Shown here one piece after another: positions 1-11,311 of a DNA stretch of 25,611 nt (position 1 is the stretch's first letter; each line of letters begins with the position of its first letter). Origin of the DNA: Flavitalea sp. GTDB lineage: Bacteria > Bacteroidota > Bacteroidia > Chitinophagales > Chitinophagaceae. The stretch is taken from positions 1-25,611 of the forward strand of contig JBEVNF010000072.1 in the NCBI GenBank assembly GCA_040508255.1, read 5' to 3'. The translations under genes and the position numbers were made by a program. The notes beneath the pieces were generated by a model. That model ran no database searches. It saw nothing but the letters and a program-made list of their open reading frames with translations, and was not told where the DNA came from.

Positions 1-663
1 AGTGGTGATCTTGGTAACCGTTGGGAAAACCGTCCTGGCATCTATGGTCGTGCAACGGATAAGGATCGTACGCCCGAATCAGAAAAGATCTATAAGGAAG
101 AGTGGAAAGAGATCATGCAGGATCTTCACAACTTCCCGAGCATCATTGTATGGGTTCCATTCAACGAAGCATGGGGTCAGTTCAAAACAAAAGAGATCAC
201 AGAATGGACAATGGCAAAAGATCCATCACGTCTTGTTAACAGTGCAAGCGGTGGAAACTTTGAACCCGTTGGTCATATCATGGATCTTCACAACTATCCT
301 GAACCATTGATGCCTGATGCATCGATCTATGGTAAAAAGCAGATCGTTGTGCTTGGTGAGTGTGGTGGTCTTGGTTTACCTATTGAAGGACATACCTGGC
401 AGGAAAAAAACAACTGGGGTTATGTAAGTTTCAAGAACAGCGAAGAACTTCAGAAACGCTATGCAGAACATATCGCAGCAATACCAGCGCTTATCAAAGC
501 GGGCATGAGTGCCGCGGTGTATACACAAACTACAGATGTGGAAGTTGAAACCAACGGTCTTATGAGTTATGACCGTAAGGTGATCAAGATCCCTGTAGCA
601 GCGCTGAAACAAATCCACGCGCAGCTTTATCAGCAAAACATCGCCGTTAAGGCAACAAAATAG
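1..663 (+). CDS. Glycoside hydrolase family 2, C-terminal part of the TIM-barrel catalytic domain (5' end outside the window)
   Basis: Frame 1 is open from base 1 (SGDLGNRWENRPG...) to TAG at 661-663. It contains the GH2 acid/base motif WVPFNEAWGQ, the DPSRLVNSASG segment, the nucleophile motif LGECGG (usually GEF/YGG) and the C-terminal YTQTTDVEVETNGLMSYDRK motif. Confidence 0.9.
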   Translation, partial: SGDLGNRWENRPGIYGRATDKDRTPESEKIYKEEWKEIMQDLHNFPSIIVWVPFNEAWGQFKTKEITEWTMAKDPSRLVNSASGGNFEPVGHIMDLHNYPEPLMPDASIYGKKQIVVLGECGGLGLPIEGHTWQEKNNWGYVSFKNSEELQKRYAEHIAAIPALIKAGMSAAVYTQTTDVEVETNGLMSYDRKVIKIPVAALKQIHAQLYQQNIAVKATK

Positions 664-667
664 GTTT

Positions 668-720
668 TGATGGCTTCATGTTGCCGGGTGATGAGTAGTT
701 GCCCGGCGACTGAAGTATCA
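668..720 (+). other. Intercistronic stem-loop (probable mRNA stability or processing element)
   Basis: TGAT..CTTCA.GTTGCCGGG-loop-CCCGGCGAC.TGAAG.ATCA forms a long stem with a G-U pair on the + strand. No U-tract follows, so it is not a typical intrinsic terminator. Confidence 0.55.
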
Positions 721-753
721 TAATTCCTTACTCTTTACGACAAGCATCTTTTT

Positions 754-3189
754 ATGTTGAAACAACTGTTTGCACTTTCAATGAGTGCAATGTCATTTGG
801 TTTATTAAATGCACAGGAATTACGTGCACCAGCTTACCCGCTGATCACGCATGATCCATATTTCTGTATCTGGTCAAACACCAATGAACTCACAGGTTCT
901 GCAACCCGCCACTGGACAGGGGTTGATCAGTCTATCGTTGGCACTGTTACTGTTGATGGAAAGACCTTTCGTTTTCTTGGCGATAAGGAAAAGGCCTTTG
1001 CGTCAGTATTAAAAACATCCGATGAAATGCCGGCATATCAATCGGTTTATACTGAAACAGAACCATCAGGCAACTGGAAAGAGATCAATTACCAGGAGGG
1101 TGGATGGAAGAAGGGTACCGGATCTTTTGGTGATAACCGGAAGGCAGGCACAAAATGGACAAGCAAAGATCTTTGGGTTAGAAGAACGTTTACGCTTGCG
1201 ATGCTTCCTGACACAGAACTTTTTCTGAAGCTGATACACGATGATAATATCGAAGTTTATCTGAATGGTGAAGAGATTTTCAAAACCGTCGGATGGACGA
1301 ATAAATACATTTACCCGGCGATCAGCAAAGCTATCGTTTCAAAAATGAAGGCCGGTAAAAACGTTCTTGCGATCCATGTGGCGAATACTGCAGGCGGGCA
1401 GGAGCTGGATGCAGGAATTGTTTCTGAGATCATCGATAAACGTGATCCCGCCGAGCTGGTGGCAGTTCAGAAATCTGTGAAGGTAACAGCGTTATCAACC
1501 GTTTACGCTTTTACCGCGGGTGCTGTTGATCTTTCGCTGACATTTACTTCGCCGCTGCTGGCAAAGGATCTGGAGCTTCTTGCAAGACCGGTCAGCTATA
1601 TCACTACATCAGTAAAATCTAATGATGGAAAAAATCATAAGGTTCAGCTGAATTTCGGTGTTTCAACTGATCTCGCTGTGAATACACAGGTTCAGCCAGT
1701 AAAAGCCGAAAAATATGTTGCTGCGGGTTTGAATATTCTGAAAGCGGGAACGGTTGAGCAACCTGTTCTTAAAAAGAAAGGTGATGATGTGCGGATAGAC
1801 TGGGGTTACTTATATGTAGCAGTTTCGACCGCAGCCAACGCGACACAAAGCATCAAGCCTACCGGTCAGCCGGCGATCAAGGGAAATACGCTGACTGGTA
1901 AACATATTAGTCTCGACACAAGATTTGATCTTGGTGAGGTAGGGAGATTACCTGTAGGAAAGGTTATGATGATCGGTTATGATGATCTTGAATCTATTCA
2001 GTATTTCGGTACCAATCTGAAACCATGGGGGAAGAAAGATGGGATCACATTTGAACAGTTACTTGCGAAAGCTTCAAAAGAGTATAGCACAGTTACGGAT
2101 CGATGCTTTGCTTTTGACAGGGTTATTCACGAAGATGCATTGAAAGCAGGTGGTGAACAATATGCAAAACTTTGTGTGCTTGCGTATCGTCAAAGCCTGG
2201 CTGGTCATAAACTGGTGAAGAGTCCACAGGGTGAGCTGTTATTTCTTTCAAAAGAAAACTTCAGTAATGGTTCTATCAACACAGTTGATATCACTTATCC
2301 ATCTGCACCATTGTATCTCGTTTACAATCCGGAGTTATTGAAGGGCATGATGAACGGGATCTTTTATTATAGCGAAAGCGGGAAATGGGCGAAGCCATTT
2401 GCCGCTCATGATCTTGGTACCTATCCATTGGCCAATGGTCAAACCTATGGTGAAGATATGCCGGTAGAAGAGTCTGGTAATATGCTGATCCTTACAACAG
2501 CCATAGCTGCTGTTGAAGGCAACGCAGCGTATGCTAAAAAACATTGGAAGGTTCTTACAACCTGGGCTCAGTATCTGTCCAGAGAAGGTCTTGATCCGGC
2601 GAACCAACTTTGTACAGATGATTTTGCGGGTCATCTTGCCCGTAACGCCAACTTATCTGCAAAGGCAATCGTAGCGCTTCGTGGTTATTCAAAACTTGCA
2701 GAACAACTTGGCTTTGCAGATACCGCAGCTGCCTATAAAAAGATGACCGATGAAATGGTTCAGAAATGGATGCAGATGGCGGATGATGGTGATCATTATG
2801 CGCTGACTTTTGACGGTAAAGGTACCTGGAGTCAGAAGTACAATATTGTGTGGGATAAAATTCTGGGACTTGATCTTTTTCCGAAAGAGGTTTATAAAAA
2901 AGAGATGAAGTATTATCTCGGTAAACAGAATGAATTTGGTTTGCCGCTTGACAGTCGTAAGACTTATACAAAGTCTGACTGGATCATGTGGACAGCTGTG
3001 CTTTCCGACAATGATGCCGATTTCCAGGCTTTGATAGCGCCGATCTACAAATATGCAAATGAGACCTCCACACGTGTGCCGCTTAGCGACTGGCATGAAA
3101 CAACCGACGGAAAGCAGGTTGGTTTCCAGGCAAGGAGTGTGGTTGGGGGTTATTTCATTAAATTACTTCAGCAAAAACTCGCAAAGTAA
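754..3189 (+). CDS. Secreted 'glutaminase A (GtaA)'-like protein, DUF4964/DUF5127/DUF4965 architecture, with an inserted galactose-binding-like beta-sandwich; probable glycoside hydrolase-like enzyme
   Basis: 811 aa. Signal peptide ends LLNA|Q. Family motifs: LRAPAYPLITHDPYF.IWS, KKGDDVRIDWGYLY, SKENFSNGSINTVDITYPSAP, HDLGTYPLANGQ.YGEDMPVEESGNM, QLCTDDFAGH, YGLPLDSRK.YTKSDW-like, VGFQARSVVGG. Insert at about aa 78-232 (WKKG.GSFG, LWVRRTF, HDD.IEVYLNG, GKNVLAIHVAN). Confidence 0.85.
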   Translation: MLKQLFALSMSAMSFGLLNAQELRAPAYPLITHDPYFCIWSNTNELTGSATRHWTGVDQSIVGTVTVDGKTFRFLGDKEKAFASVLKTSDEMPAYQSVYTETEPSGNWKEINYQEGGWKKGTGSFGDNRKAGTKWTSKDLWVRRTFTLAMLPDTELFLKLIHDDNIEVYLNGEEIFKTVGWTNKYIYPAISKAIVSKMKAGKNVLAIHVANTAGGQELDAGIVSEIIDKRDPAELVAVQKSVKVTALSTVYAFTAGAVDLSLTFTSPLLAKDLELLARPVSYITTSVKSNDGKNHKVQLNFGVSTDLAVNTQVQPVKAEKYVAAGLNILKAGTVEQPVLKKKGDDVRIDWGYLYVAVSTAANATQSIKPTGQPAIKGNTLTGKHISLDTRFDLGEVGRLPVGKVMMIGYDDLESIQYFGTNLKPWGKKDGITFEQLLAKASKEYSTVTDRCFAFDRVIHEDALKAGGEQYAKLCVLAYRQSLAGHKLVKSPQGELLFLSKENFSNGSINTVDITYPSAPLYLVYNPELLKGMMNGIFYYSESGKWAKPFAAHDLGTYPLANGQTYGEDMPVEESGNMLILTTAIAAVEGNAAYAKKHWKVLTTWAQYLSREGLDPANQLCTDDFAGHLARNANLSAKAIVALRGYSKLAEQLGFADTAAAYKKMTDEMVQKWMQMADDGDHYALTFDGKGTWSQKYNIVWDKILGLDLFPKEVYKKEMKYYLGKQNEFGLPLDSRKTYTKSDWIMWTAVLSDNDADFQALIAPIYKYANETSTRVPLSDWHETTDGKQVGFQARSVVGGYFIKLLQQKLAK

Positions 3190-3194
3190 AAATT

Positions 3195-4367
3195 ATGACA
3201 ATGAAAAAAACAGGATTATTAGCGTCAATAGTAGCTGCACAGTTGATCGTATCGTGCGGTGATGCTCCAAAAGATTCAGAAAAACCAGGTAGTGATTCTT
3301 CTTCGGTAGCGCCCACATCATCACTGTACCCTGACAGCACTGCTTTCAGCAAAGTGATCGATGGCCAGCAAACCCATCTTTATATTTTAAAGAATGGAAA
3401 AGGCATGTCTGCCGCCATTACGAATTATGGTGGCAGGCTTGTGGGGCTGTATGTTCCTGTTGGAGATAGTACGGTTGATGTAGTAACAGGATTTAAGAGT
3501 GTTGATGATTTTGCAAATTCAACAGAGCCTTATTTTGGTGCTACCATTGGTCGTTATGGCAATCGTCTTGCAAAAGGTAAATTCTCCATTGATGGTAAAC
3601 AATATACTGTAGTTCCAAACAATGGTCAGAATGCATTGCATGGTGGTAAGAAAGGTTTCCAGTCTGTAGTGTGGAACGCAGTGCAGGAAAATGATTCAAC
3701 ACTTGAACTGAGATATCTTTCAAAAGATGGTGAAGAAGGATTTCCCGGTAACCTGACCGTGAAAGTTGTTTACACGCTTACATCTGATAACGGACTTGCA
3801 ATTTCTTACGAAGCACAAACAGATAAGAAAACAGTTGTGAATCTTACCAATCATGCTTTCTATAATCTCAATGGTGAGGGAAGTGGTACGATTTTAAATC
3901 ATACGCTTCAGATCGATGCTGATCAGTATACACCGGTAGATTCTACATTGATACCAATCGGCAAGAATTTACCTGTTGCCGGAACTCCTTTCGATTTCAG
4001 GAAACCAACTACTATTGGTGCACGCATCGAAGAGAAAAACGAGCAATTGAAAAATGGTACCGGTTATGATCATAACTATGTTGTGAATGGCAAGGGTATG
4101 AGGAAGGTTGCTTCTATTACGGGTGATAAAAGCGGTATTACCATGGATGTGCTTACTGTTGAGCCCGGTCTCCAGTTCTACAGTGGCAACTTTATGCAGG
4201 GTAAGAACACCTTCAAAGGCGGATCGAAAGATGAATTCAGAAATGCATTTTGTCTTGAGACCCAGCATTTCCCAGATTCACCAAATCAACCTTCGTTCCC
4301 GACAACTATTTTGAATCCGGGCGAAACTTACAAGACCAACACCTTGTACCTATTCAAGACAAAATAA
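3195..4367 (+). CDS. galM: Aldose 1-epimerase (mutarotase), predicted lipoprotein
   Basis: Motifs YFGATIGRYGNR, NALHGG, NLTNHAFYNL, GYDHN, FCLETQHFPDSPN. The N-terminus MTMKKTGLLASIVAAQLIVS-C is a lipoprotein signal, followed by a Ser/Pro-rich linker. An alternative ATG lies at 3201. Confidence 0.93.
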   Translation: MTMKKTGLLASIVAAQLIVSCGDAPKDSEKPGSDSSSVAPTSSLYPDSTAFSKVIDGQQTHLYILKNGKGMSAAITNYGGRLVGLYVPVGDSTVDVVTGFKSVDDFANSTEPYFGATIGRYGNRLAKGKFSIDGKQYTVVPNNGQNALHGGKKGFQSVVWNAVQENDSTLELRYLSKDGEEGFPGNLTVKVVYTLTSDNGLAISYEAQTDKKTVVNLTNHAFYNLNGEGSGTILNHTLQIDADQYTPVDSTLIPIGKNLPVAGTPFDFRKPTTIGARIEEKNEQLKNGTGYDHNYVVNGKGMRKVASITGDKSGITMDVLTVEPGLQFYSGNFMQGKNTFKGGSKDEFRNAFCLETQHFPDSPNQPSFPTTILNPGETYKTNTLYLFKTK

Positions 4368-4389
4368 TTGCTGATTCAACGTACTGATC

Positions 4390-5424
4390 ATGAGTGATGT
4401 TTTTTCACGTGTTACCATTCTTGATATTGCCAAAGAGCTGAATATTACTGCTGCAACGGTTTCACGCGCATTGAACGATCATCCTTCGATCAGGGAATCA
4501 ACAAAACAAATTGTAAGATTAACAGCTGATAAACTCAATTATCAGCCCAACAAACTAGCTTCTTCTCTGCGTCTCGGGAAATCAAAGATCATCGGTGTGA
4601 TCATTCCGAGCGCAGAGATCAGCTTCTTTGGTTCTGTGGTTCATGGTATTGAAAAGATCGCCAATCAGCATGGCTACAACCTGCTGATCTATCAGTCAAA
4701 CGAACAATATGAATCAGAGAAAAAAGGTATACAGACTTTTCTTCAATCACAGGTTGATGGTGTACTTGCCTCTATTTCCAAAGAAACAATTGACCTGGAC
4801 CATTTTGCAACTATCCGTAAAAGAAATGTTCCGCTGATCCTTTTCGACAGAACAAGTGATGAACTTGGCGTTTCTTCGGTTGTTGTTGATGATTATCATG
4901 GTGCTTTCGAGGCAACGAAACATCTTGCAGAACAAGGTTGTAAAAGGATCGCCCATATAGCCGGCCAGCAACATGTTGGAATTTTCAACATGCGCTTAAA
5001 GGGTTATGTGGATGCGCTGACGAGTTGCGATCTTCCTGTACAGGATGAACTTATAGTGTATGGCAATGTGAGTATCGAGAGCGGTAATCACTGTATGCGC
5101 AAATTACTTGATCTTGCATCACCGCCGGATGGGGTGTTTGCAGTAGAAGATTTCTCAGCCCTCGGGGCGATGCAGACTATCAAGGCTGCAGGTATTCAAA
5201 TGCCGGATGATATTGCTATCATTGGCTTCGCAAATGAAGCCTTCGGCGAATATTTAACACCCTCCTTATCGACCGTAAATCAGCAAACCGTACAAATGGG
5301 TGAGCTGGCTGCTGAATTGTTTTTTGACATGTCGCGTAACGGATATCATCCGGCATTCAAACCTCAGAAAAAAATCATGCAACCAACACTTGTTTGTCGC
5401 GAGTCGTCGCTTCGTCACAAATAA
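4390..5424 (+). CDS. LacI family transcriptional regulator
   Basis: N-terminal HTH VTILDIAKELNITAATVSRALND, hinge YQPNKLASSLR, and a periplasmic-binding-protein-like core ending PSLSTVNQ...GELAA...LVCRES. Confidence 0.95.
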   Translation: MSDVFSRVTILDIAKELNITAATVSRALNDHPSIRESTKQIVRLTADKLNYQPNKLASSLRLGKSKIIGVIIPSAEISFFGSVVHGIEKIANQHGYNLLIYQSNEQYESEKKGIQTFLQSQVDGVLASISKETIDLDHFATIRKRNVPLILFDRTSDELGVSSVVVDDYHGAFEATKHLAEQGCKRIAHIAGQQHVGIFNMRLKGYVDALTSCDLPVQDELIVYGNVSIESGNHCMRKLLDLASPPDGVFAVEDFSALGAMQTIKAAGIQMPDDIAIIGFANEAFGEYLTPSLSTVNQQTVQMGELAAELFFDMSRNGYHPAFKPQKKIMQPTLVCRESSLRHK

Positions 5425-5447
5425 GCATCAAACTATATTATTCATTT

Positions 5448-5463
5448 AGTGCAACATTGCGCT
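5448..5463. promoter_or_regulatory. Candidate LacI-family operator
   Basis: AGTGCAACATTGCGCT is an imperfect palindrome (6 of 8 pairs). Its core GCAACATTGC differs by one base from GCAACGTTGC. It lies in the 61-bp gap between the LacI gene and the next ATG. Confidence 0.4.
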
Positions 5464-5485
5464 GGCATTGCAAAATCAAATCCAT

Positions 5486-7564
5486 ATGATCAGATCTTTT
5501 TTCGTTTTATTTTTAATGTTGCCGTTTCTCGCCGGGGCTCAATTGAAACCTGATGCTTCGGGGTTTAAGAAGTCTTCAAACGCTGCCTGGTCAGTAAAAG
5601 GAAATGAACTTACATTGAACTGGCCGGTTTCAAAACAGCAGAAGGGAAGGGTGGTGATAGATATGAGTGAAGGCGCTCCTCTTATTAAGGCCCTGCAATT
5701 GGTTAAGGGTAAAACCGTTTCTGATATTACCACAAATGTGGATCCCGCTTTTGTACTGACAATAGGTAAGAGAGATCTTGTTTCGCAGAATGGATGGAAC
5801 ATTTTCTTTGACAGAGTTCCTACAAAACCATTCAGGTCTCACAAAGTTGAGTTTCAAAAGAAATCAGTTGCTATCATTTCTGAGGGCAACAGAACAGTGC
5901 TTCGGATCGGGTCTGTGAGTGCACCCGCATTTACAGGCGATCTTGAAATTACTGTTTATCCGCAAAGCCCGCTTGTGAATATTGCTGCAGTAATGACAAC
6001 GAATGTTGATTCAACTGCTATTCTTTATGATGCAGGACTTACTGCCTCAAAGTCTGCCTGGGATACTATCTCATGGTCAAATGTTTATGGTGAAATGCAG
6101 CATCATGCTCCCGGTGAGTTTGATACCGCTACCAACAATGCTGTGAAGTATCGTACCATATTGGGTAAGGTAAAGAATGGAACGCTCGCTGTATTTCCGG
6201 CACCACATCAATATTTTTATCCGCTCGATGAAGCTTTCAACCTTAATTTTACCTGGTCAGGAAATAACTATCGCAGGATGCTTGATGGCTTTGGATTGGG
6301 TATACGCCAGGATCTTTATGGTGATCGTCGTTTTGTACCATGGTTCAATGCTCCGCCGGGCACAAAACAACGCATGAATTTCTATTGCCTGCTCAGCGAA
6401 GGCGACCAGGCGGCAACGCTGGAAGAAGTAAAGAAATTTACTCACAGTGATACCTATCCGAAAATTGCAGGTCATCAACGTATGTCAAGTCACTTTCATA
6501 ATGAATACGTGATGAATACGATCATACCAGGCAAGCCTGTTCCTGATACTCCGAATTTCGTAAAGGTGTTCAAAACACTTGGTGTTGATATCGTTCACCT
6601 TGGTGAGTTTCACTATACCGCACATCCGCGTGGTCCGGATGATCAGAGACTTAATGAACTGAATGAGCTTTTTAAAATGTGTCAGCGTTATTCTGATGGC
6701 AGGTTCCTATTGCTGCCGGGTGAAGAACCAAATGAATTTTATGGTGGTCACTGGTTACAATTTTTTCCAAAACCGGTTTACTGGATCATGTCGCGTGCGA
6801 AAGATCTCCCGTTTGTTTCTGAACATCCGGACTATGGAAAAGTATATCGTATAAGGAACAGCGAAGAAATGCAGAAGCTGCTCGAAGTTGAAAAGGGACT
6901 GGCATGGACCGCGCATCCGCGTACAAAAGGTTCAACAGGTTATCCGGATAAGTATAAGAACGAACCATTTTTTAAATCTGAGACATTTATGGGTGCAGCC
7001 TGGAAGCCAATACCGGCTGATCTTTCTGTTGACAGACTTGGAATTCGTGTACTTGATCTTATCGATGACATGAACAACTGGGGACTAAAAAAGAAAGTGA
7101 TCGCAGAAGCTGATCTCTTCACCATCGAACCGGAAAATGAAATGTATGCGCATCTGAATGTGAACTACCTGCGGATGGATAAACTTCCTGAATACAAAGA
7201 TGGATGGCAGCCTGTGATCGATGCTATGCACAACGGAAGTTTCTTTTCTTCAACAGGTGAGATCGTTATCCCTGAGTTCAAAGCAAATGGAGGTTTATCC
7301 GGCGATACTGTTGCGCTTGCGGCCAATGGAAATGCCGATATCAACTTTGATGTTGAGTGGACGTTCCCGTTAAACTTCGCATTGCTTGTGTCAGGAGACG
7401 GATCTAAAGTTTATAAAGAGCGAATCGATCTGAGAAATACAACGGCATTCGGCAAAGAAAAATTCAGAAAACAACTTAACCTGAAAGGACGCAAATGGGT
7501 GCGCCTCGAAGTTTGGGATGCTGCTGTGAATGGTGCTTTTACACAAACAATCTGGCTAAAATAA
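5486..7564 (+). CDS. Secreted protein of unknown function with a PHP-like (CehA/McbA-type) metallohydrolase domain
   Basis: The ATG at 5486 gives a clean signal peptide MIRSFFVLFLMLPFLAGA|Q (the ORF track starts at TTG 5468). The N-terminal half is beta-rich. The C-terminal half has PHP-type ligand motifs SSHFHNE (6491-6499), HLGEFH, LLPGEEP, GGHW, WTAHP and AEAD, then a small C-terminal beta domain (WVRLEVWD..VNGAFTQ). Confidence 0.7.
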   Translation: MIRSFFVLFLMLPFLAGAQLKPDASGFKKSSNAAWSVKGNELTLNWPVSKQQKGRVVIDMSEGAPLIKALQLVKGKTVSDITTNVDPAFVLTIGKRDLVSQNGWNIFFDRVPTKPFRSHKVEFQKKSVAIISEGNRTVLRIGSVSAPAFTGDLEITVYPQSPLVNIAAVMTTNVDSTAILYDAGLTASKSAWDTISWSNVYGEMQHHAPGEFDTATNNAVKYRTILGKVKNGTLAVFPAPHQYFYPLDEAFNLNFTWSGNNYRRMLDGFGLGIRQDLYGDRRFVPWFNAPPGTKQRMNFYCLLSEGDQAATLEEVKKFTHSDTYPKIAGHQRMSSHFHNEYVMNTIIPGKPVPDTPNFVKVFKTLGVDIVHLGEFHYTAHPRGPDDQRLNELNELFKMCQRYSDGRFLLLPGEEPNEFYGGHWLQFFPKPVYWIMSRAKDLPFVSEHPDYGKVYRIRNSEEMQKLLEVEKGLAWTAHPRTKGSTGYPDKYKNEPFFKSETFMGAAWKPIPADLSVDRLGIRVLDLIDDMNNWGLKKKVIAEADLFTIEPENEMYAHLNVNYLRMDKLPEYKDGWQPVIDAMHNGSFFSSTGEIVIPEFKANGGLSGDTVALAANGNADINFDVEWTFPLNFALLVSGDGSKVYKERIDLRNTTAFGKEKFRKQLNLKGRKWVRLEVWDAAVNGAFTQTIWLK

Positions 7565-7578
7565 ATAACGAACTCTGA

Positions 7579-9654
7579 ATGAAGCTTAGAAAATTTAAAA
7601 CAGCAATCATTATCGCAACATTGCTGCGATCGTTTTCGGTATTTGCACAGACTGCGGATGTTACCACCTCAAAGGCGAATTTCAGAACAGCTCCTTTGCC
7701 AACGGGTTTGATAAAAGATAAATACGCTGAGCTACCGCTTGGTGCAATAAAACCAAGCGGCTGGCTCAAAGGTCAGCTTGAGATAATGAACAAAGGAACT
7801 ACCGGGCATCTTGATGAGGTATATCGCAAGGTCCAGAACGATAATGGGTGGCTTGGTGGTAGAGGCGATGGCTGGGAGGAAACACCTTATTGGCTGGATG
7901 GGGCAGTGCCATTGGCTTATTTGCTGGATGATGCCGTATTAAAAGAAAAGGTTCTGAAATACATCAACTGGACAATCGACAATCAGCGTCCCTCCGGATA
8001 TTTTGGCCCCCTTACAAAATGGGAACGTGAAACAGGTAAAAAGGTTTCAGCGGAAGAATGTGATATGGGTGAAGACTGGTGGCCAAAAATGGTGATGCTG
8101 AAAGTTGTTCAGCAATACTATACCGCAACAAATGATAAGCGTGTAATTCCATTTCTTACAAAATATTTTGATTACCAGTTGAAGACACTGCAAGCCTGTC
8201 CCATCAAAAAGTGGACAGAATGGGCGGAGTCGCGTGGTGCTGATAATATGCTTGTGATCCAATGGCTGTATACTAAAACAAAAAATCCTTCATTACTAAA
8301 ACTTGCATCTACTATCCAATCACAATCACTTGGATGGAGCAAAATGTTTTTCGAGCGTGATTGGGTGATCAATGCTGCAACGCTTCAGAACTCTGATAAA
8401 TGGATGACAAGACATGGAGTGAATGTTGCGATGGGTATCAAGGATCCTGCAGTAAACTATCAGCGCACCGGTGATAAAAAATATCTTGAGGCGTTGAATG
8501 TTGGTTTTCATGACCTGATGACCTTGCATGGTTTGCCTTATGGTGTTTTCTCTGCCGATGAAGATCTTCATGGTAATGATCCCACACAGGGTGTAGAACT
8601 GTGCGCAACGGTTGAGGCAATGTTTTCACTTGAACATGCTATTGGCGTTACGGGGAGTACAAAATATATGGATGCATTGGAGCGTATGACCTTTAATGCA
8701 CTTCCAGGGCAGACAACTGATGATTATAATAACAAACAATACTTCCAGATAGCGAACCAGGTTCATATCAAACGTGGTGTGTTCAATTTTTCTTTACCAT
8801 TTGAAAGGGAGATGAATAACGTGCTTGGTATGAGGGCAGGTTATACCTGTTGTCTCGCAAACATGCACCAGGGCTGGACAAAGTTCACTTCGCATTTGTG
8901 GTATGGAGCTGATGGTAATGGCATTGCAGCGCTTCACTATAGTCCCAGTGTTGTAAAAACAAAACTTGGTGCCGCTAAAAAGGAAGTGACAATCACAGAA
9001 AACACTTCTTATCCTTTTGATGATAAGATTGAATTCAATTTCGCAATGACCGGGACAAATGCATTTCCATTCGATGTGAGAATCCCGGAATGGTGTGATA
9101 ACGCTGTCCTGGAAGTGAATGGTCTGAGCCAGGGAATAGTAAAGCCGGGTGAGATGATCAGGATGTCAAGAACCTGGAAAAACGGCGATAAGGTTTCGCT
9201 GATCCTTCCCATGAAAGTGCGTACTTCAAATTGGGGACGGAACTCAAGATCTGTGGAACGCGGCCCGCTTGTATATGCACTTAAGTTGGGGGAGCAGTGG
9301 GAAAAAGATAGTATCAAAGAAGAGGGTGAGTACTTCAATGTGTTTACCAAAGATCCATGGAATTATGGTTTGGTAGAAGCGGTGATCAGGTCGCCGGTGG
9401 AGCAGGTTGGGGTGAAAGTTATCAGTAAACCTGGACAGGGATTTGTCTGGAATCTTGCGAATGCACCGGTTGAACTTACCGCGAAAGCGAAGAAGATCCC
9501 GGATTGGAAAATTGTGAATGATGTAGCTCCACAGCCGGTTACAGCGAGGGAAGGATTGTATAAAGGCAAGGTGGAAAGTGAGGTTGAAACGATAACGTTG
9601 GTGCCTATAGGATGTACGAAGGTGAGGATTGTGGCGTTTCCGGTAGTACCGTAA
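7579..9654 (+). CDS. GH127/GH146-type (beta-L-arabinofuranosidase family) cysteine glycosidase, secreted
   Basis: Signal peptide ends SVFA|Q. Motifs LPLGAIKPSGWL..QL, GGRGDGWEETPYWLDG, HGVN, FSADE, E-L-C (8596-8604) and T-C-C (8848-8853), matching the Zn-binding Glu/Cys/Cys-Cys set of this family. Also T.YPFD, RIPEW and RGPLVYAL in the C-terminal sandwiches. Confidence 0.88.
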   Translation: MKLRKFKTAIIIATLLRSFSVFAQTADVTTSKANFRTAPLPTGLIKDKYAELPLGAIKPSGWLKGQLEIMNKGTTGHLDEVYRKVQNDNGWLGGRGDGWEETPYWLDGAVPLAYLLDDAVLKEKVLKYINWTIDNQRPSGYFGPLTKWERETGKKVSAEECDMGEDWWPKMVMLKVVQQYYTATNDKRVIPFLTKYFDYQLKTLQACPIKKWTEWAESRGADNMLVIQWLYTKTKNPSLLKLASTIQSQSLGWSKMFFERDWVINAATLQNSDKWMTRHGVNVAMGIKDPAVNYQRTGDKKYLEALNVGFHDLMTLHGLPYGVFSADEDLHGNDPTQGVELCATVEAMFSLEHAIGVTGSTKYMDALERMTFNALPGQTTDDYNNKQYFQIANQVHIKRGVFNFSLPFEREMNNVLGMRAGYTCCLANMHQGWTKFTSHLWYGADGNGIAALHYSPSVVKTKLGAAKKEVTITENTSYPFDDKIEFNFAMTGTNAFPFDVRIPEWCDNAVLEVNGLSQGIVKPGEMIRMSRTWKNGDKVSLILPMKVRTSNWGRNSRSVERGPLVYALKLGEQWEKDSIKEEGEYFNVFTKDPWNYGLVEAVIRSPVEQVGVKVISKPGQGFVWNLANAPVELTAKAKKIPDWKIVNDVAPQPVTAREGLYKGKVESEVETITLVPIGCTKVRIVAFPVVP

Positions 9655-9660
9655 ATTTTT

Positions 9661-9697
9661 AAACTGCTCTTCATAATTGGGGAGCAGTTTTGTTTTG
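9661..9697 (+). terminator. Intrinsic terminator closing the carbohydrate locus
   Basis: AAACTGCTC...GAGCAGTTT stem followed by TGTTTTG, 6 nt after the GH127 stop. Confidence 0.75.
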
Positions 9698-9714
9698 GGC
9701 GAGTGGTTAGGACG

Positions 9715-9782
9715 GCTCACTTATTCTGCGAAGATGCTTATACACCCACCTACGCTGTAGCTTCTGCGGGATAATTGTGAGC
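9715..9782 (+). repeat. Long imperfect palindrome, REP-like extragenic element
   Basis: GCTCAC-TTATTCTGC-GAAG pairs with CTTC-GCGGGATAA-GTGAGC (19 pairs with bulges and G-U pairs). The 3' arm CCACCTACGCTGTAGCTTCTGCGGG resembles, from memory, an extragenic palindrome common in Bacteroidota. Confidence 0.45.
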
Positions 9783-9814
9783 ATGGCCCCCAATTTGCAT
9801 CGCGGTCACTTCAT

Positions 9815-11311
9815 ATGACAAACGGCACACTGCTCCAGTTTTTTCACTGGTATATCCCAACGGACGGAAGCTTATGGAACGACGCAAAAGACAAAGCGCA
9901 ACAACTTGCCGACCTCGGCATTAATTCAGTTTGGTTGCCACCTGCATACAAAGGAGAACAGGGTGCAGAATCTTCGGGCTACAATGTTTACGATATATAT
10001 GATCTTGGAGAGTTTGACCAGAAAGGTTCAGTAAGAACCAAGTTTGGTACAAAAGAAGAATATCGTGCTGCCGTGGATACGCTTCATGAAAAAGGAATAC
10101 AGGTTTATGCCGATATAGTTGTGAATCACATGGGTGGCGCGGATGAAACTGAGAAAGTCTGGGTCCGCCGCGTAGATCCGGACAATCGAAATGAATTCAC
10201 CAGCGAGCCTTTTGAGATCGAAGCATTTACAAAATTTACATTTCCTGGCAGGGGCGGTAAGTATTCTGAGTTTGTTTGGAATTATACCTGTTTCACCGGA
10301 ATTGACTATGCAAAAGATCTGGATGAAACAGCGATTTTCAGTATTCTCAATGATTACGGGGAAGGTTGGGAAGATGTGATCGATACAGAAAAGGGGAACT
10401 ACGACTATCTTATGTTCAGCGATATAGAATTCCGTAACAAGGAAGTCAGGGAAGAAATTAAGCGCTGGGGTAAATGGTATCTGGAACAGATCCCCTTCGA
10501 TGGTGTACGGCTCGATGCTGTTAAACATATCGCACCGCAATTTTTCAACGAATGGCTGGACTACATGAGAACGATCAAGCCTGATCTTTTTGCAGTAGGA
10601 GAGTATTGGGCACCAGGTGAGCTGCCATTATTATTGAAATACATTGAAGCGACAAATGAAAGGATGAGTCTTTTCGATGCATCTCTGCATCACAATCTTC
10701 ACAATGCTTCAAAACAGGGAAAAGATTTTGATCTTACAACAATCTTTAATGACAGTCTTGTTGGGGTAAAACCTCAGCTTGCAGTTACAGTTGTAGATAA
10801 TCACGATACACAACCTTTGCAATCATTGGAGGCTCCGGTGGAGGCCTGGTTTAAACCGCATGCCTATTCGCTTATCCTGCTTCGCGAAGGCGGTTACCCG
10901 ACAGTGTTCTACCCGGATCTGTTTGGCGCACACTATACCGATAAAGGGAATGATGGGAACGAGCATGAGATTTTTCTTGACAAAGCCAGGCATATTGAAG
11001 AACTACTGATGGCAAGAAAGCTTTATGCCTATGGACAGCAACGTGACTATTTCGATCATCCCAACTGTATTGGTTGGACCCGCGAAGGCGTAGAGGAAAA
11101 TTCAAACTCCGGTTGTGCCGTTTTGCTCAGCAATAGTGAAGACGGATTTAAGTCTATGGAGATCGGTAAACAATTTACCGGCAAGCCGTTCGTTGATATG
11201 CTTGGAACTATCGGAGATGAAGTTGTAATTAATCAAGACGGGTGGGGTGAGTTCCGGGTTAACGCCGGCGCAATAGCTGTTTGGGTTTTAAAAGAAGCCT
11301 TACCACAATGA
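9815..11311 (+). CDS. amyA: Alpha-amylase, GH13 (subfamily 5 type), cytoplasmic
   Basis: Starts NGTLLQFFHWY with no signal peptide. Conserved regions YADIVVNH, GVRLDAVKHI, AVGEYW and VVDNHDTQP are present with the catalytic D/E/D intact. Confidence 0.93.
   Translation: MTNGTLLQFFHWYIPTDGSLWNDAKDKAQQLADLGINSVWLPPAYKGEQGAESSGYNVYDIYDLGEFDQKGSVRTKFGTKEEYRAAVDTLHEKGIQVYADIVVNHMGGADETEKVWVRRVDPDNRNEFTSEPFEIEAFTKFTFPGRGGKYSEFVWNYTCFTGIDYAKDLDETAIFSILNDYGEGWEDVIDTEKGNYDYLMFSDIEFRNKEVREEIKRWGKWYLEQIPFDGVRLDAVKHIAPQFFNEWLDYMRTIKPDLFAVGEYWAPGELPLLLKYIEATNERMSLFDASLHHNLHNASKQGKDFDLTTIFNDSLVGVKPQLAVTVVDNHDTQPLQSLEAPVEAWFKPHAYSLILLREGGYPTVFYPDLFGAHYTDKGNDGNEHEIFLDKARHIEELLMARKLYAYGQQRDYFDHPNCIGWTREGVEENSNSGCAVLLSNSEDGFKSMEIGKQFTGKPFVDMLGTIGDEVVINQDGWGEFRVNAGAIAVWVLKEALPQ

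What the first reader, a model, noticed from the sequence alone, without database searches (positions are those of the whole stretch)
1..9654. Candidate furanoside (L-arabinofuranose / D-galactofuranose) utilisation locus carrying two enzymes of unassigned function
Seen: six co-oriented genes with gaps of only 5-90 bp (GH2, GtaA-like, mutarotase, LacI, PHP-like, GH127/146), ending in a terminator. Established: GH127/146 enzymes cleave beta-L-arabinofuranosides, some GH2 enzymes are beta-D-galactofuranosidases, and L-Araf and D-Galf share ring stereochemistry (beta-L-Araf resembles alpha-D-Galf; alpha-L-Araf resembles beta-D-Galf). Inference: the locus may strip both anomers of furanosides from one glycan, such as fungal galactofuranose-containing wall polymers, plant extensin arabinosides or a bacterial wall polysaccharide. 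The GtaA-like and PHP-like proteins would supply missing activities. The SusC/SusD pair of this locus is presumably upstream of the window.
Basis: partly seen in the sequence, partly recalled or inferred. Interest (0 to 1): 0.72.

Follow-up and report, generated by a model that had tools for sequence, protein, structure and literature searches.

The report
Conserved furanoside-trimming glycosidase gene cluster
This is a real operon-like cluster of secreted sugar-cleaving enzymes from a soil Bacteroidota genome, built around a furanose-specific type of GH2 enzyme. The same enzyme families recur together, and are even fused into one protein, in many other bacteria, which gives two orphan enzyme families a testable job.

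Summary
Six + strand ORFs lie 5-90 nt apart and end at a strong terminator (9661-9690).

The furanoside reading is largely supported by homology and comparative genomics.
- **GH2:** it belongs to GH2 "group III" (GH2_18/19), the only GH2 clade with furanosidase activities. Its closest characterised relative is the Galf-specific ORF1110.
- **DUF4965:** the model folds like clan GH-O enzymes (GH116/GH52).
- **GH127-like:** it keeps the E-x-C and C-C zinc/nucleophile motifs.
- **Fusions:** 42 of 48 long DUF4965 homologues are fused to GH2. Three are GH2+DUF4965+GH127 triple fusions, in the window's gene order. One of these sits next to galactokinase.
- **Neighbourhoods:** 27 of 80 loci centred on the PHP-like gene, from three orders, carry at least one of GH2-III, DUF4965 or GH127-like. 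Twelve of these also carry SusC or SusD.

Not supported: same-genus relatives have only GFO-GH2-GalM-PHP-amylase, with no SusC/SusD upstream. The window is therefore an expanded variant, and its own upstream flank is not assembled.

Galf versus L-Araf is unresolved. I lean towards D-Galf glycans. The PHP-like protein has a mutarotase-like domain plus a PHP fold, and its function is unassigned. This scan had already reported GH2-DUF4965 fusions in other genomes.

The parts
1..663 (+). 3' end (220 codons) of a secreted GH2 group III (GH2_18-like) furanosidase gene. Predicted beta-D-galactofuranosidase and/or alpha-L-arabinofuranosidase. The N-terminal ~400 codons are lost at the contig end.
   Evidence: PDB sequence hits: 7SF2 at 230 bits, 9J6N ORF1110 Galf-ase at 104 bits, 7XYR at 49 bits, and nothing else at E<=1e-5. 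The 77%-identical full-length orthologue L008:275-2125 scores 741, 452 and 324 bits against these, with 82 bits for the next GH2. The N-E acid/base, the nucleophile E, and the equivalents of Y551 and E594 are present. The N-terminal half was not found in the MAG.
664..753 (+). 90-nt spacer with a 9-bp G+C-rich hairpin (about 681-710) and no T-run. Possible junction, attenuator or internal promoter region.
   Evidence: Sequence read. The terminator scan does not call it. In same-genus loci GH2 is followed directly by GalM.
754..3189 (+). Secreted DUF4964-DUF5127-GtaA_6_Hairpin ('glutaminase A-like', DUF4965) protein. Candidate clan GH-O-type glycosidase of unassigned specificity.
   Evidence: Pfam 479, 145 and 81 bits. 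No PDB sequence relative. The AF2 model (pLDDT 74) matches GH116 (TM 0.52-0.55, E 4e-15), including the exo-beta-D-arabinofuranosidase ExoMA2 8IC6, and GH52. Of 48 long homologues, 42 are fused to GH2. Signal peptide seen.
3195..4367 (+). Lipoprotein aldose 1-epimerase (GalM-type mutarotase)
   Evidence: Pfam Aldose_epim 296 bits. NF008277 galactose-1-epimerase 330 bits, above its cutoff of 240. The N-terminus has a lipobox (…IVSC) followed by a Ser/Asp-rich linker. Orthologues (62-74% identity) sit in the same module in G002, G022, L031 and L047-49.
4390..5424 (+). LacI-family repressor, the likely local regulator
   Evidence: LacI HTH plus Peripla_BP domains. Orthologues of 69-73% identity lie inside the same module in L022, L044, L045, L046, L057 and L068. 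A LacI gene is also in L119.
5486..7564 (+). Secreted three-domain protein: a galactose-mutarotase-like beta-supersandwich (about 35-327), a PHP-fold metallohydrolase barrel (about 334-599) and a C-terminal beta-sandwich. Function unassigned. The ORF may start at TTG 5468.
   Evidence: No Pfam hit; CehA/McbA 46.9 bits, below the cutoff of 80. AF2 model pLDDT 84.7, pTM 0.86. VIA gives Z 15.0 to the PHP phosphoesterase 2ANU, 14.6 to 3E38, and about 14-15 to GalM and to GH36/PL26 N-domains. H342, H344, H377, H382, E419/E420, H428, H483 and D549 are invariant in 33 homologues. More than 3000 homologues were found.
7579..9654 (+). Secreted, divergent GH127/GH146-superfamily (DUF1680) cysteine-type glycosidase
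   Evidence: PF07944 97 bits and PF20736 65 bits. Weak PDB hits: 5MQO and 4QJY (GH127) at 60 and 57 bits, 5OPJ (GH146) at 33 bits. The E-x-C and C-C motifs align with those chains. It aligns over its full length (32% identity, E 3e-102) with the C-terminal part of the GH2+DUF4965+GH127 fusion P0260.
9661..9690 (+). Intrinsic terminator closing the cluster
   Evidence: 13-pair stem, 4-nt loop, T-rich tail. The alpha-amylase gene starts at 9815.

Best explanation
The stretch is one transcription unit of secreted or periplasmic exo-glycosidases. It is a compact version of a polysaccharide-utilisation module that recurs in soil Bacteroidota.

Proposed working:
1. Imported oligosaccharides carrying furanosyl residues are trimmed in the periplasm.
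2. The GH2 group III enzyme removes terminal beta-D-Galf. Alpha-L-Araf, the C6-less look-alike, is not excluded.
3. The DUF4965 protein (GH116/GH52-like fold) and the GH127-like cysteine glycosidase cut further linkages of the same glycan.
4. The lipoprotein GalM equilibrates the released aldose, D-galactose or L-arabinose.
5. The LacI repressor senses a product.
6. The PHP-fold protein with a sugar-binding-like N-domain is an accessory metal-dependent hydrolase. My inference is that it removes a phosphate or ester substituent, or cleaves a phosphodiester link.

I commit to a microbial Galf-containing glycan, such as fungal-type galactomannan or a bacterial galactofuranan, as the most likely substrate class.

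Shown: the family assignments, the conserved catalytic motifs, the co-localisation, the fusions and the folds. Inferred: the actual substrates, the order of action, the regulation and the PHP chemistry.
For: **1. GH2 clade.**
- The full-length orthologue scores 741 bits to 7SF2, 452 to the Galf-specific ORF1110 (9J6N) and 324 to 7XYR. Every other GH2 structure scores 82 bits or less.
- Group III (GH2_18/19) is the only GH2 group with furanosidase activities (PMC12243196).
- All ORF1110 ligand residues (K212, Y228, H401, N463, E464, E530, Y551, E594) are conserved in the orthologue. Those lying within the window fragment are present there.
- The orthologue has a signal peptide, as GH2_18 members do.

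**2. Natural fusions (Rosetta stone).**
- Of 48 DUF4965 homologues of at least 1421 aa, 42 carry GH2 domains.
- Three are GH2+DUF4965+GH127. One is DUF4965+GH127, one +GH51, one +GH92 and one +GH31.
- In P0260 the GH2 part is 49% identical to the orthologue over its full length. The GH127 part matches the window's protein end to end (E 3e-102). P0253 behaves likewise.
- G022 has a DUF4965::GH43 fusion followed by TAT-GFO, GH127-like, GalM (63% identity) and GFO.

**3. Neighbourhoods.**
- In 80 loci around PHP-like homologues: GH127-like in 23, GH2-III in 16, DUF4965 in 14, GH43 in 20, a GH5-like 359-aa family in 19, and SusC/SusD/DUF3823 in 21-23.
- 27 loci have at least one of the three core families, 18 have at least two, and 8 have all three (Pfam).
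- GH2-centred look-ups give the same partners.

**4. Nested phyletic pattern in 40 relatives.** GH2-III occurs in 11 genomes. DUF4965 occurs in 7, all inside those 11. GH127-like (5) and PHP-like (4) each lie entirely inside the 7 DUF4965 carriers.

**5. DUF4965 fold.** GH116/GH52, TM 0.5-0.6. An activity-based probe study also argues for a glycosidase (PMC9668830).

**6. GH127-like active site.** It keeps E-x-C and C-C.

**7. Hints towards galactose.**
- Galactokinase lies directly downstream of the triple fusion P0266.
- GalM scores above the cutoff of the galactose-1-epimerase subfamily.
- GH92 and GH125 alpha-mannosidases lie in the Flavisolibacter version of the PUL.
- No araA/B/D genes were seen in any annotated locus.

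**8. Operon signs.** Short gaps and a terminator.
Against: - Four same-genus loci carry only GFO-GH2-GalM-PHP-amylase. DUF4965, LacI and GH127 are therefore three additions, or three losses, at this site. The six genes are not an invariant unit.
- The ORF1110 ligand residues are invariant in all 14 group III sequences examined, including 43-48% identical paralogues. They do not separate Galf from Araf specificity. Group III also holds alpha-L-arabinofuranosidases. 7XYR was deposited as a beta-glucuronidase.
- Characterised GH127/146 enzymes act on beta-L-Araf or aceric acid, not on Galf. GH43 and GH51 partners, and a Terrimonas GH51/GH43 PUL next to the GH2, point to L-arabinans.
- The PHP-like gene sits with the module in only about one third of 80 loci. 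Ten loci have it in a glycosidase-free SusC/SusD-DUF3823-ThuA/DUF7133-GFO-TIM cluster, and 34 loci show none of the partner sets recognised here.
- The galactokinase hint rests on one locus.
- There are no expression or enzyme data.
- The GH2 gene is truncated in the assembly.
Confidence: 0.6

Rival explanations
1. The same functionally linked module targets plant L-arabinofuranosides (pectic arabinan caps, arabinogalactan-proteins, extensin Hyp-arabinosides) rather than Galf. The GH2 acts as an alpha-L-Araf-ase and the GH127-like enzyme as a beta-L-Araf-ase. GalM mutarotates L-arabinose.
For: - The GH127/146 superfamily is known for beta-L-Araf-ases (molecule names).
- GH43 partners occur in 20 of 80 loci.
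- There is a DUF4965+GH51 fusion (P0258).
- In Terrimonas the GH2-III gene is adjacent to a GH51x3/GH43 PUL.
- Group III GH2 includes alpha-L-Araf-ases (PMC12243196).
- Bifunctional Araf/Galf-ases are common (PMC11627007).
Against: - The nearest characterised GH2 is strictly Galf-specific, and its O6-binding triad is conserved.
- Galactokinase, not arabinose genes, lies beside the triple fusion.
- GH92 and GH125 mannosidases lie in one full PUL.
- No araA/B/D genes appear in any locus that was annotated.
Confidence: 0.3
2. The six genes are a chance mosaic. A conserved genus backbone (GFO-GH2-GalM-PHP-amylase) picked up three unrelated genes, with no common substrate.
For: - Same-genus loci lack DUF4965, LacI and GH127.
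- There is a hairpin-bearing 90-nt spacer after GH2.
- Co-orientation extends over 22 kb and so is uninformative.
Against: - The three "extra" genes are exactly the families that accompany GH2-III and PHP-like genes in other orders.
- Two of them are fused to GH2-III in single proteins.
- The LacI has 69-73% identical orthologues inside the same module elsewhere.
Confidence: 0.07
3. An ordinary beta-galactoside or beta-glucuronide (pyranoside) locus, as automatic annotation suggests for the GH2 ('beta-galactosidase/beta-glucuronidase') together with a Leloir mutarotase.
For: - Source names of the GH2 homologues.
- 7XYR is deposited as a beta-glucuronidase.
- A Streptomyces DUF4965 homologue showed weak beta-galactosidase activity (PMC9668830).
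Against: - The GH2 scores 452 bits to the Galf-ase and 82 bits or less to any pyranosidase GH2 structure.
- Group III lacks the stacking Trp of the pyranosidases and has only furanosidase activities on record (PMC12243196, PMC11627007).
Confidence: 0.03

Closest known systems
ORF1110, beta-D-galactofuranosidase of Streptomyces sp. JHA19 (GH2_18; PDB 9J6M/9J6N), and the uncharacterised BACCELL_01794 (PDB 7SF2)
   Same: Same GH2 group III. The three-domain core is about 600 aa. The catalytic N-E and E, and all Galf-contacting residues, are conserved. The protein is secreted.
   Different: About 43% identity only. There is no C-terminal AbfB/CBM42 domain. No activity has been measured. The gene is truncated in the window.
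Bacteroides galactan PULs induced by mycobacterial arabinogalactan (B. finegoldii GH43_31 BACFIN_08810 and GH182 BACFIN_04787; PMC10115798)
   Same: Bacteroidota loci that degrade Galf polymers using exo-furanosidases. A GH43 partner is present in the fuller versions of this module.
   Different: Those PULs rest on GH43_31 and GH182. This module rests on GH2-III, DUF4965 and GH127-like, with the PHP-like gene in about a third of its loci. No substrate has been tested here.
GH127/GH146 beta-L-arabinofuranosidases (for example Geobacillus GH127 4QJY, BT0349 GH146 5OPJ) and the GH127 aceric-acid hydrolase (5MQO)
   Same: (alpha/alpha)6 catalytic domain plus middle domain. The E-x-C and C-C motifs are conserved.
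   Different: Very divergent (57-60 bits), with only residues 324-570 aligning to solved chains. The PF20737 C-domain is not detected. The acid/base residue is not located. The specificity is unknown.
GH116/GH52 (clan GH-O) retaining glycosidases, including TxGH116 and the exo-beta-D-arabinofuranosidase ExoMA2 (8IC6; PMC10509167)
   Same: The overall two-domain fold of the DUF4965 model: a beta-sandwich plus an (alpha/alpha)6 domain.
   Different: No detectable sequence similarity. An extra inserted jelly-roll is present. The catalytic residues are not mapped. The family is not in CAZy as far as the searched literature shows.
PHP-family metal-dependent phosphoesterases (TM0559 2ANU, BVU_3505 3E38)
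   Same: The fold of residues about 334-599 (Z 15) and the conserved H-x-H and further His/Glu/Asp positions.
   Different: Flanked by a mutarotase-like N-domain and a beta-sandwich, an architecture like GH36/GH97/GH101. The protein is secreted, lies in PULs, and its chemistry is unknown.

Membership tests
GH2 group III (GH2_18/GH2_19 furanosidases) | Sequence far closer to group III members than to other GH2 enzymes | tested here: met
   Window fragment: 230, 104 and 49 bits to 7SF2, 9J6N and 7XYR, with no other PDB chain at E<=1e-5. Orthologue: 741, 452 and 324 bits, against 82 or less for the rest.
GH2 group III (GH2_18/GH2_19 furanosidases) | Catalytic N-E acid/base and Glu nucleophile | tested here: met
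   Both are present in the window fragment (the …NEAWGQ… and …VLGECGG… stretches) and align to N463/E464 and E530 of ORF1110.
GH2 group III (GH2_18/GH2_19 furanosidases) | Galf-contacting residues of ORF1110 (K212, Y228, H401, Y551, E594) | tested here: inconclusive
   The Y551 and E594 equivalents are present in the window. K212, Y228 and H401 lie in the missing N-terminal part; they are conserved in the 77%-identical orthologue. All are invariant across 14 group III sequences, so they do not discriminate Galf from Araf.
GH2 group III (GH2_18/GH2_19 furanosidases) | Furanosidase activity | not testable with these tools
   Needs an enzyme assay.
GH127/GH146 (DUF1680) cysteine glycosidases | Catalytic and middle domains above the Pfam gathering score | tested here: met
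   PF07944 97.3 bits (cutoff 24.9) and PF20736 64.7 bits (cutoff 24.2).
GH127/GH146 (DUF1680) cysteine glycosidases | Zn-binding and nucleophile motifs E-x-C and C-C | tested here: met
   These motifs align with the same motifs of 5MQO and 4QJY and of the fusion P0260. Their assignment as Zn ligands and nucleophile comes from my own knowledge of HypBA1.
GH127/GH146 (DUF1680) cysteine glycosidases | Acid/base Glu upstream of E-x-C | tested here: inconclusive
   The HMMER alignments start at residue 324 and do not cover that position.
DUF4965 / 'glutaminase A-like' family | DUF4964 + DUF5127 + GtaA_6_Hairpin domain set | tested here: met
   81, 145 and 479 bits.
Clan GH-O (GH116/GH52) glycosidases | Shared fold | tested here: met
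   Foldseek E 4e-15, TM 0.52-0.55 to GH116. TM 0.5-0.6 to GH52. The model's pLDDT is 74.
Clan GH-O (GH116/GH52) glycosidases | Catalytic Glu nucleophile and Asp acid/base in equivalent positions | not tested
   No residue-level structural alignment is available. The conserved loops 545-571 and 612-634 are modelled poorly.
PHP superfamily metallohydrolases | PHP barrel fold with H-x-H and further metal ligands | tested here: met
   Z 15.0 (rmsd 3.4, 200 residues) to 2ANU, and 14.6 to 3E38. H342 and H344, plus six further invariant positions (four His, one Glu, one Asp), are conserved.
CehA/McbA metallohydrolase domain (NF038032) | Score above the curated cutoff | tested here: not met
   46.9 bits against a cutoff of 80, and only residues 408-698 match.
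Canonical PUL (SusC/SusD-linked locus) | Adjacent SusC/SusD pair | tested here: inconclusive
   The window starts inside GH2, and the rest of the gene was not found in the MAG. Same-genus loci have a GFO oxidoreductase upstream and no SusC/SusD. In Ferruginibacter, Foetidibacter and Flavisolibacter, SusC-SusD-DUF3823 lies in the same locus upstream; in Ferruginibacter and Foetidibacter it immediately precedes the GH2.
GalM aldose 1-epimerase | Family score above the cutoff | tested here: met
   NF008277 330 bits (cutoff 240). The TIGR02636 equivalog scores 342, below its cutoff of 398.

The most novel reading that the evidence does not exclude
GH2-III, DUF4965 and the GH127-like protein, with the PHP-fold protein as a frequent accessory, form a previously undescribed and widely distributed enzyme set. 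It would be dedicated to microbial galactofuranose glycans (fungal galactomannan or actinobacterial galactan).

In this reading:
- DUF4965 is a new clan GH-O furanosidase family.
- This divergent GH127 clade cleaves a non-L-Araf linkage, for example alpha-D-Galf or another furanoside.
- The PHP-fold protein has a GH-like three-domain architecture and is the only hydrolase candidate in 10 glycosidase-free SusC/SusD loci. It would be a new kind of glycan-active metallo-hydrolase, such as a glycan phosphodiesterase, or even a metal-dependent glycosidase on a PHP barrel.
Probability: 0.25. Interest if true: 0.8.

Novelty: new variant of a known kind. Interest (0 to 1): 0.62.

Why it matters
Galf-degrading systems are poorly known and are sought as tools and targets, because Galf occurs in fungal and mycobacterial walls but not in mammals.

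The locus, together with the natural GH2-DUF4965(-GH127) fusions, ties one large orphan family to a defined furanosidase clade. That family is DUF4965, which is annotated as "glutaminase" throughout the databases. The fusions and neighbourhoods also tie in a divergent GH127 clade. A second orphan, the PHP-fold protein with more than 3000 homologues, is tied in more loosely, by neighbourhood in about a third of its loci.

This turns "function unknown" into a short list of substrates to assay. It also flags a systematic mis-annotation: these GH2s are named beta-galactosidase/beta-glucuronidase by their sources.

Tried and rejected
- **Upstream flank.** The window is the whole contig. A search of the MAG with the N-terminal 392 aa of the orthologous GH2 found only a 47% paralogue on C431. 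DUF3823 hits on C565 and C68 (33% identity) could not be linked to this locus.
- **PDB by sequence.** Nothing for the PHP-like profile, for DUF4965 or for the GH5-like 359-aa partner.
- **Phylum-wide sampling of the PHP-like gene.** It was too sparse (3 of 300 genomes) for co-occurrence statistics. I switched to 80 loci from the search for related loci.
- **Literature.** There is nothing on DUF3823 function. BACCELL_01794 appears only in the ORF1110 papers. The supplements of PMC10115798 held no PUL gene lists. I could not map GH182 to any protein of these loci.
- **LacI operator.** A scan for short palindromes in 1-9800 gave nothing convincing.
- **Other structure and feature searches of the PHP-like protein.** AFDB-SwissProt gave only uncharacterised Chlamydia proteins and GH36-type architectures. 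The ESM Atlas gave only "hypothetical protein" clusters.
- **Contexts of two GH2-DUF4965 fusions.** They were uninformative: stand-alone genes, one followed by an MFS sugar transporter.
- **Using the ORF1110 ligand residues to separate Galf from Araf.** Rejected, because the residues are invariant across the whole group.

Full report
**Observation**

The window is the whole contig C468 of a 574-contig MAG that is 63% complete. Best hits place it in Chitinophagaceae, near Flavitalea. ORF listing and domain scans confirm six + strand genes:
- a GH2 C-terminal fragment (1-663);
- a DUF4964/DUF5127/GtaA_6_Hairpin protein (754-3189);
- an aldose 1-epimerase (3195-4367);
- a LacI regulator (4390-5424);
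- a 692/698-aa protein with no Pfam family and a sub-threshold CehA/McbA hit (5468/5486-7564);
- a GH127-like protein (7579-9654).

The gaps are 90, 5, 22, 43-61 and 14 nt. A 13-bp-stem terminator follows at 9661-9690. Co-orientation continues to about 22 kb, so it is not evidence in itself.

The DUF4965, PHP-like and GH127-like proteins have signal peptides. GalM has a lipoprotein signal, and the orthologous GH2 has a signal peptide. This is therefore an extracytoplasmic enzyme set with a cytoplasmic repressor.

**The GH2**

The fragment matches only three kinds of PDB chain:
- 7SF2, the uncharacterised BACCELL_01794;
- 9J6M/9J6N, ORF1110, the Galf-specific beta-D-galactofuranosidase of Streptomyces sp. 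JHA19;
- 7XYR.

The 77%-identical full-length orthologue from a same-genus genome scores 741, 452 and 324 bits against these. The next GH2 structure scores 82 bits.

A 2025 subdivision of GH2 places 9J6M (GH2_18) and 7XYR (GH2_19) in "group III". That is the only group with furanosidase activities, beta-D-Galf-ase and alpha-L-Araf-ase (PMC12243196). The ORF1110 structure paper names the ligand residues (PMC11627007). All are conserved in the orthologue, and those within the fragment are present in the window.

They are also invariant in 43-48% identical paralogues. They therefore fit Galf binding but do not exclude Araf. The database names "beta-galactosidase/beta-glucuronidase" are probably wrong.

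**The two unassigned proteins**

DUF4965:
- It has no sequence relative in the PDB.
- An AF2 model (pLDDT 74) matches GH116, including the exo-beta-D-arabinofuranosidase ExoMA2, and GH52, at TM 0.5-0.6 (PMC10509167).
- This agrees with an activity-based-probe study which concluded that the family are glycosidases, not glutaminases (PMC9668830).

PHP-like protein:
- It models well (pLDDT 84.7) as three domains.
- The first is a galactose-mutarotase-like supersandwich.
- The second is a PHP phosphoesterase barrel (Z 15 to 2ANU, 14.6 to 3E38).
- The third is a beta-sandwich.
- This domain order recalls GH36, GH97 and GH101.
- H-x-H and further His/Glu/Asp positions are invariant in 33 homologues.
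- Its chemistry cannot be read from this.

**The GH127-like protein**

It is divergent: 57-60 bits to GH127 structures and 33 bits to GH146. It keeps the E-x-C and C-C motifs.

**Is it a unit?**

Within the genus the answer is mixed. G002 and three metagenomic relatives have the order DUF218 | GFO_IDH_MocA - GH2 - GalM - PHP - amylase - RR. The window sits in the same chromosomal place but has three extra genes: DUF4965, LacI and GH127. The genus backbone has a Gfo/Idh/MocA gene upstream, not SusC/SusD.

Across the phylum the answer is clear. Among 80 loci around PHP-like homologues, neighbours within 10 kb were as follows (Pfam).

| Neighbour family | Loci (of 80) |
|---|---|
| SusD | 23 |
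| GH127-like | 23 |
| SusC | 22 |
| DUF3823 | 21 |
| GH43 | 20 |
| GH5-like 359-aa family | 19 |
| GH2-III | 16 |
| DUF4965 | 14 |
| LacI orthologues | 8 |
| GalM | 6 |

Of the 80 loci, 27 have at least one of GH2-III, DUF4965 or GH127-like, 18 have at least two, and 8 have all three.

Model PULs:
- **Ferruginibacter (L044, L068):** HTCS | SusC SusD DUF3823 GH2 PHP DUF4965 u215 GH5-like LacI GH127 GH43 GFO(TAT).
- **Mucilaginibacter (L084):** DUF3823 GH2 GH127 GH43-like BNR GH5-like GH43 PHP.
- **Flavisolibacter (L118 + L031, contiguous, about 40 kb):** GH2, sulfatase, two GH92, GH125, two GH127, FG-GAP, SusC/D, DUF3823, PHP, DUF4965 and GalM.
- **Foetidibacter (L119):** SusC SusD DUF3823 GH2 LacI GH43 DUF4965 FG-GAP PAP2.

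In 40 relatives the carriers are nested. GH2-III occurs in 11 genomes and DUF4965 in 7, all within those 11. GH127-like (5) and PHP-like (4) each lie within the 7 DUF4965 carriers. Relatives are not independent, so this is a supporting pattern rather than a statistical test.

**Fusions**

Of 48 proteins of at least 1421 aa:
- 42 carry GH2 domains, and three of these also carry GH127 domains (P0260, P0261, P0266);
- one is DUF4965+GH127+PF06439;
- one each carries GH51, GH92 or GH31;
- two carry no further Pfam domain.

In P0260 the GH2 part is 49% identical to the orthologous GH2 over its full length. The C-terminal part aligns with the window's GH127-like protein end to end (E 3e-102). The module order, GH2 then DUF4965 then GH127, is that of the window. 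P0253 behaves likewise.

G022 carries a DUF4965::GH43 fusion followed by TAT-GFO, GH127-like, GalM and GFO. These fusions are the strongest argument that GH2-III, DUF4965 and the GH127-like enzyme act on one substrate.

**Which substrate?**

For D-Galf:
- The nearest characterised enzyme is Galf-specific, and its O5/O6-binding residues are kept.
- Galactokinase lies directly downstream of the triple fusion P0266.
- The GalM is of the galactose-1-epimerase type.
- GH92 and GH125 alpha-mannosidases in one full PUL fit fungal galactomannan.
- No L-arabinose catabolic genes were seen in the annotated loci.

For L-Araf:
- The known activities of GH127/146.
- The GH43 and GH51 partners.
- A GH51/GH43 PUL next to the GH2 in Terrimonas.

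I lean about 55:45 towards Galf within the furanoside reading.

**The PHP-like protein**

It is the least securely tied member. Two thirds of its loci lack the three core families. Ten loci place it after SusC-SusD-DUF3823 with ThuA/DUF7133-cupredoxin, GFO and TIM-barrel genes and no glycosidase. That hints at a glycan-active role of its own.

**Comparison and novelty**

The pieces belong to known kinds: a GH2_18-like furanosidase, the GH127 superfamily, GalM, LacI and PUL-type organisation. The library of papers I could search holds no description of the conserved association, or of the fusions, of GH2-III with DUF4965 and a divergent GH127 clade, or of their recurrent link to the PHP-fold protein. 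Only this scan's own earlier notes mention GH2-DUF4965 fusions.

I rate it a new variant of a known kind, of moderate to high interest. It makes the function of two large orphan families directly testable.

**Limits**

The GH2 is truncated and the upstream flank is absent. Specificity and the PHP chemistry are inferred.

Noticed in passing
It lies in the same position, directly after the TPR histidine kinase, in two relatives (L014:17283-17402 and L103:8002-8121), where it was called as a 39-aa gene.
   Followed up: partly
L061:3881-20964, and about 9 similar loci (L040, L052, L069, L085, L090, L078, L095 and others): In Spirosoma, Larkinella and other Cytophagales the PHP-like gene follows SusC-SusD-DUF3823. 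After it come a 1196-aa ThuA-DUF7133-cupredoxin protein, ThuA, GFO_IDH_MocA, a xylose-isomerase-like TIM barrel and UPF0261. No glycoside hydrolase lies within 10 kb. This is a PUL-like locus with only oxidative-type enzymes and the PHP-fold protein.
   Followed up: partly
L121:6951-11507 (G001, same genus): A 1518-aa protein with a DUF4965 N-terminal half and about 700 C-terminal residues that have no Pfam family. It lies directly after a SusC/SusD pair and diverges from a LacI gene.
   Followed up: no
G000:C431:4129-5796 (-), G000:C209:5126-7048 (-), G000:C86:4160-6145 (+), G000:C114:2466-4217 (+): The same MAG holds a second group III GH2 (47-48% identity), two further GH127-like paralogues (47% and 35%) and a second DUF4965 gene (57%). 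The genome therefore invests repeatedly in this enzyme set.
   Followed up: no
window 664-753: The GH2-DUF4965 spacer has a G+C-rich 9-bp hairpin (about 681-710) with no T-tail. Same-genus loci have GalM at this position instead of DUF4965, so this may mark an insertion junction or an internal regulatory site.
   Followed up: no
L044:14737-15384 and L044:15421-16518 (families u215 and GH5-like 359 aa): Two further conserved partners of the module are absent from the window. One is a 215-aa protein with no family (9 loci). The other is a ~360-aa protein (19 loci) with only weak GH5/GH2-TIM similarity and no PDB sequence relative. Both are candidates for additional unassigned glycosidases.
   Followed up: partly
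L118:11884-14753; L048:16070-17392; L119:17679-21854: A sulfatase with its FGE maturase, PAP2/vanadium-chloroperoxidase-like phosphatases and ~1180-aa FG-GAP/ASPIC-UnbV proteins recur beside the module. This suggests a substituted (phosphorylated or sulfated) glycan.
   Followed up: no
window 9815-11311: The alpha-amylase (PRK09441 type), and the response-regulator/histidine-kinase genes after it, belong to the conserved genus backbone. A terminator separates them from the cluster, so they are probably not part of it.
   Followed up: partly
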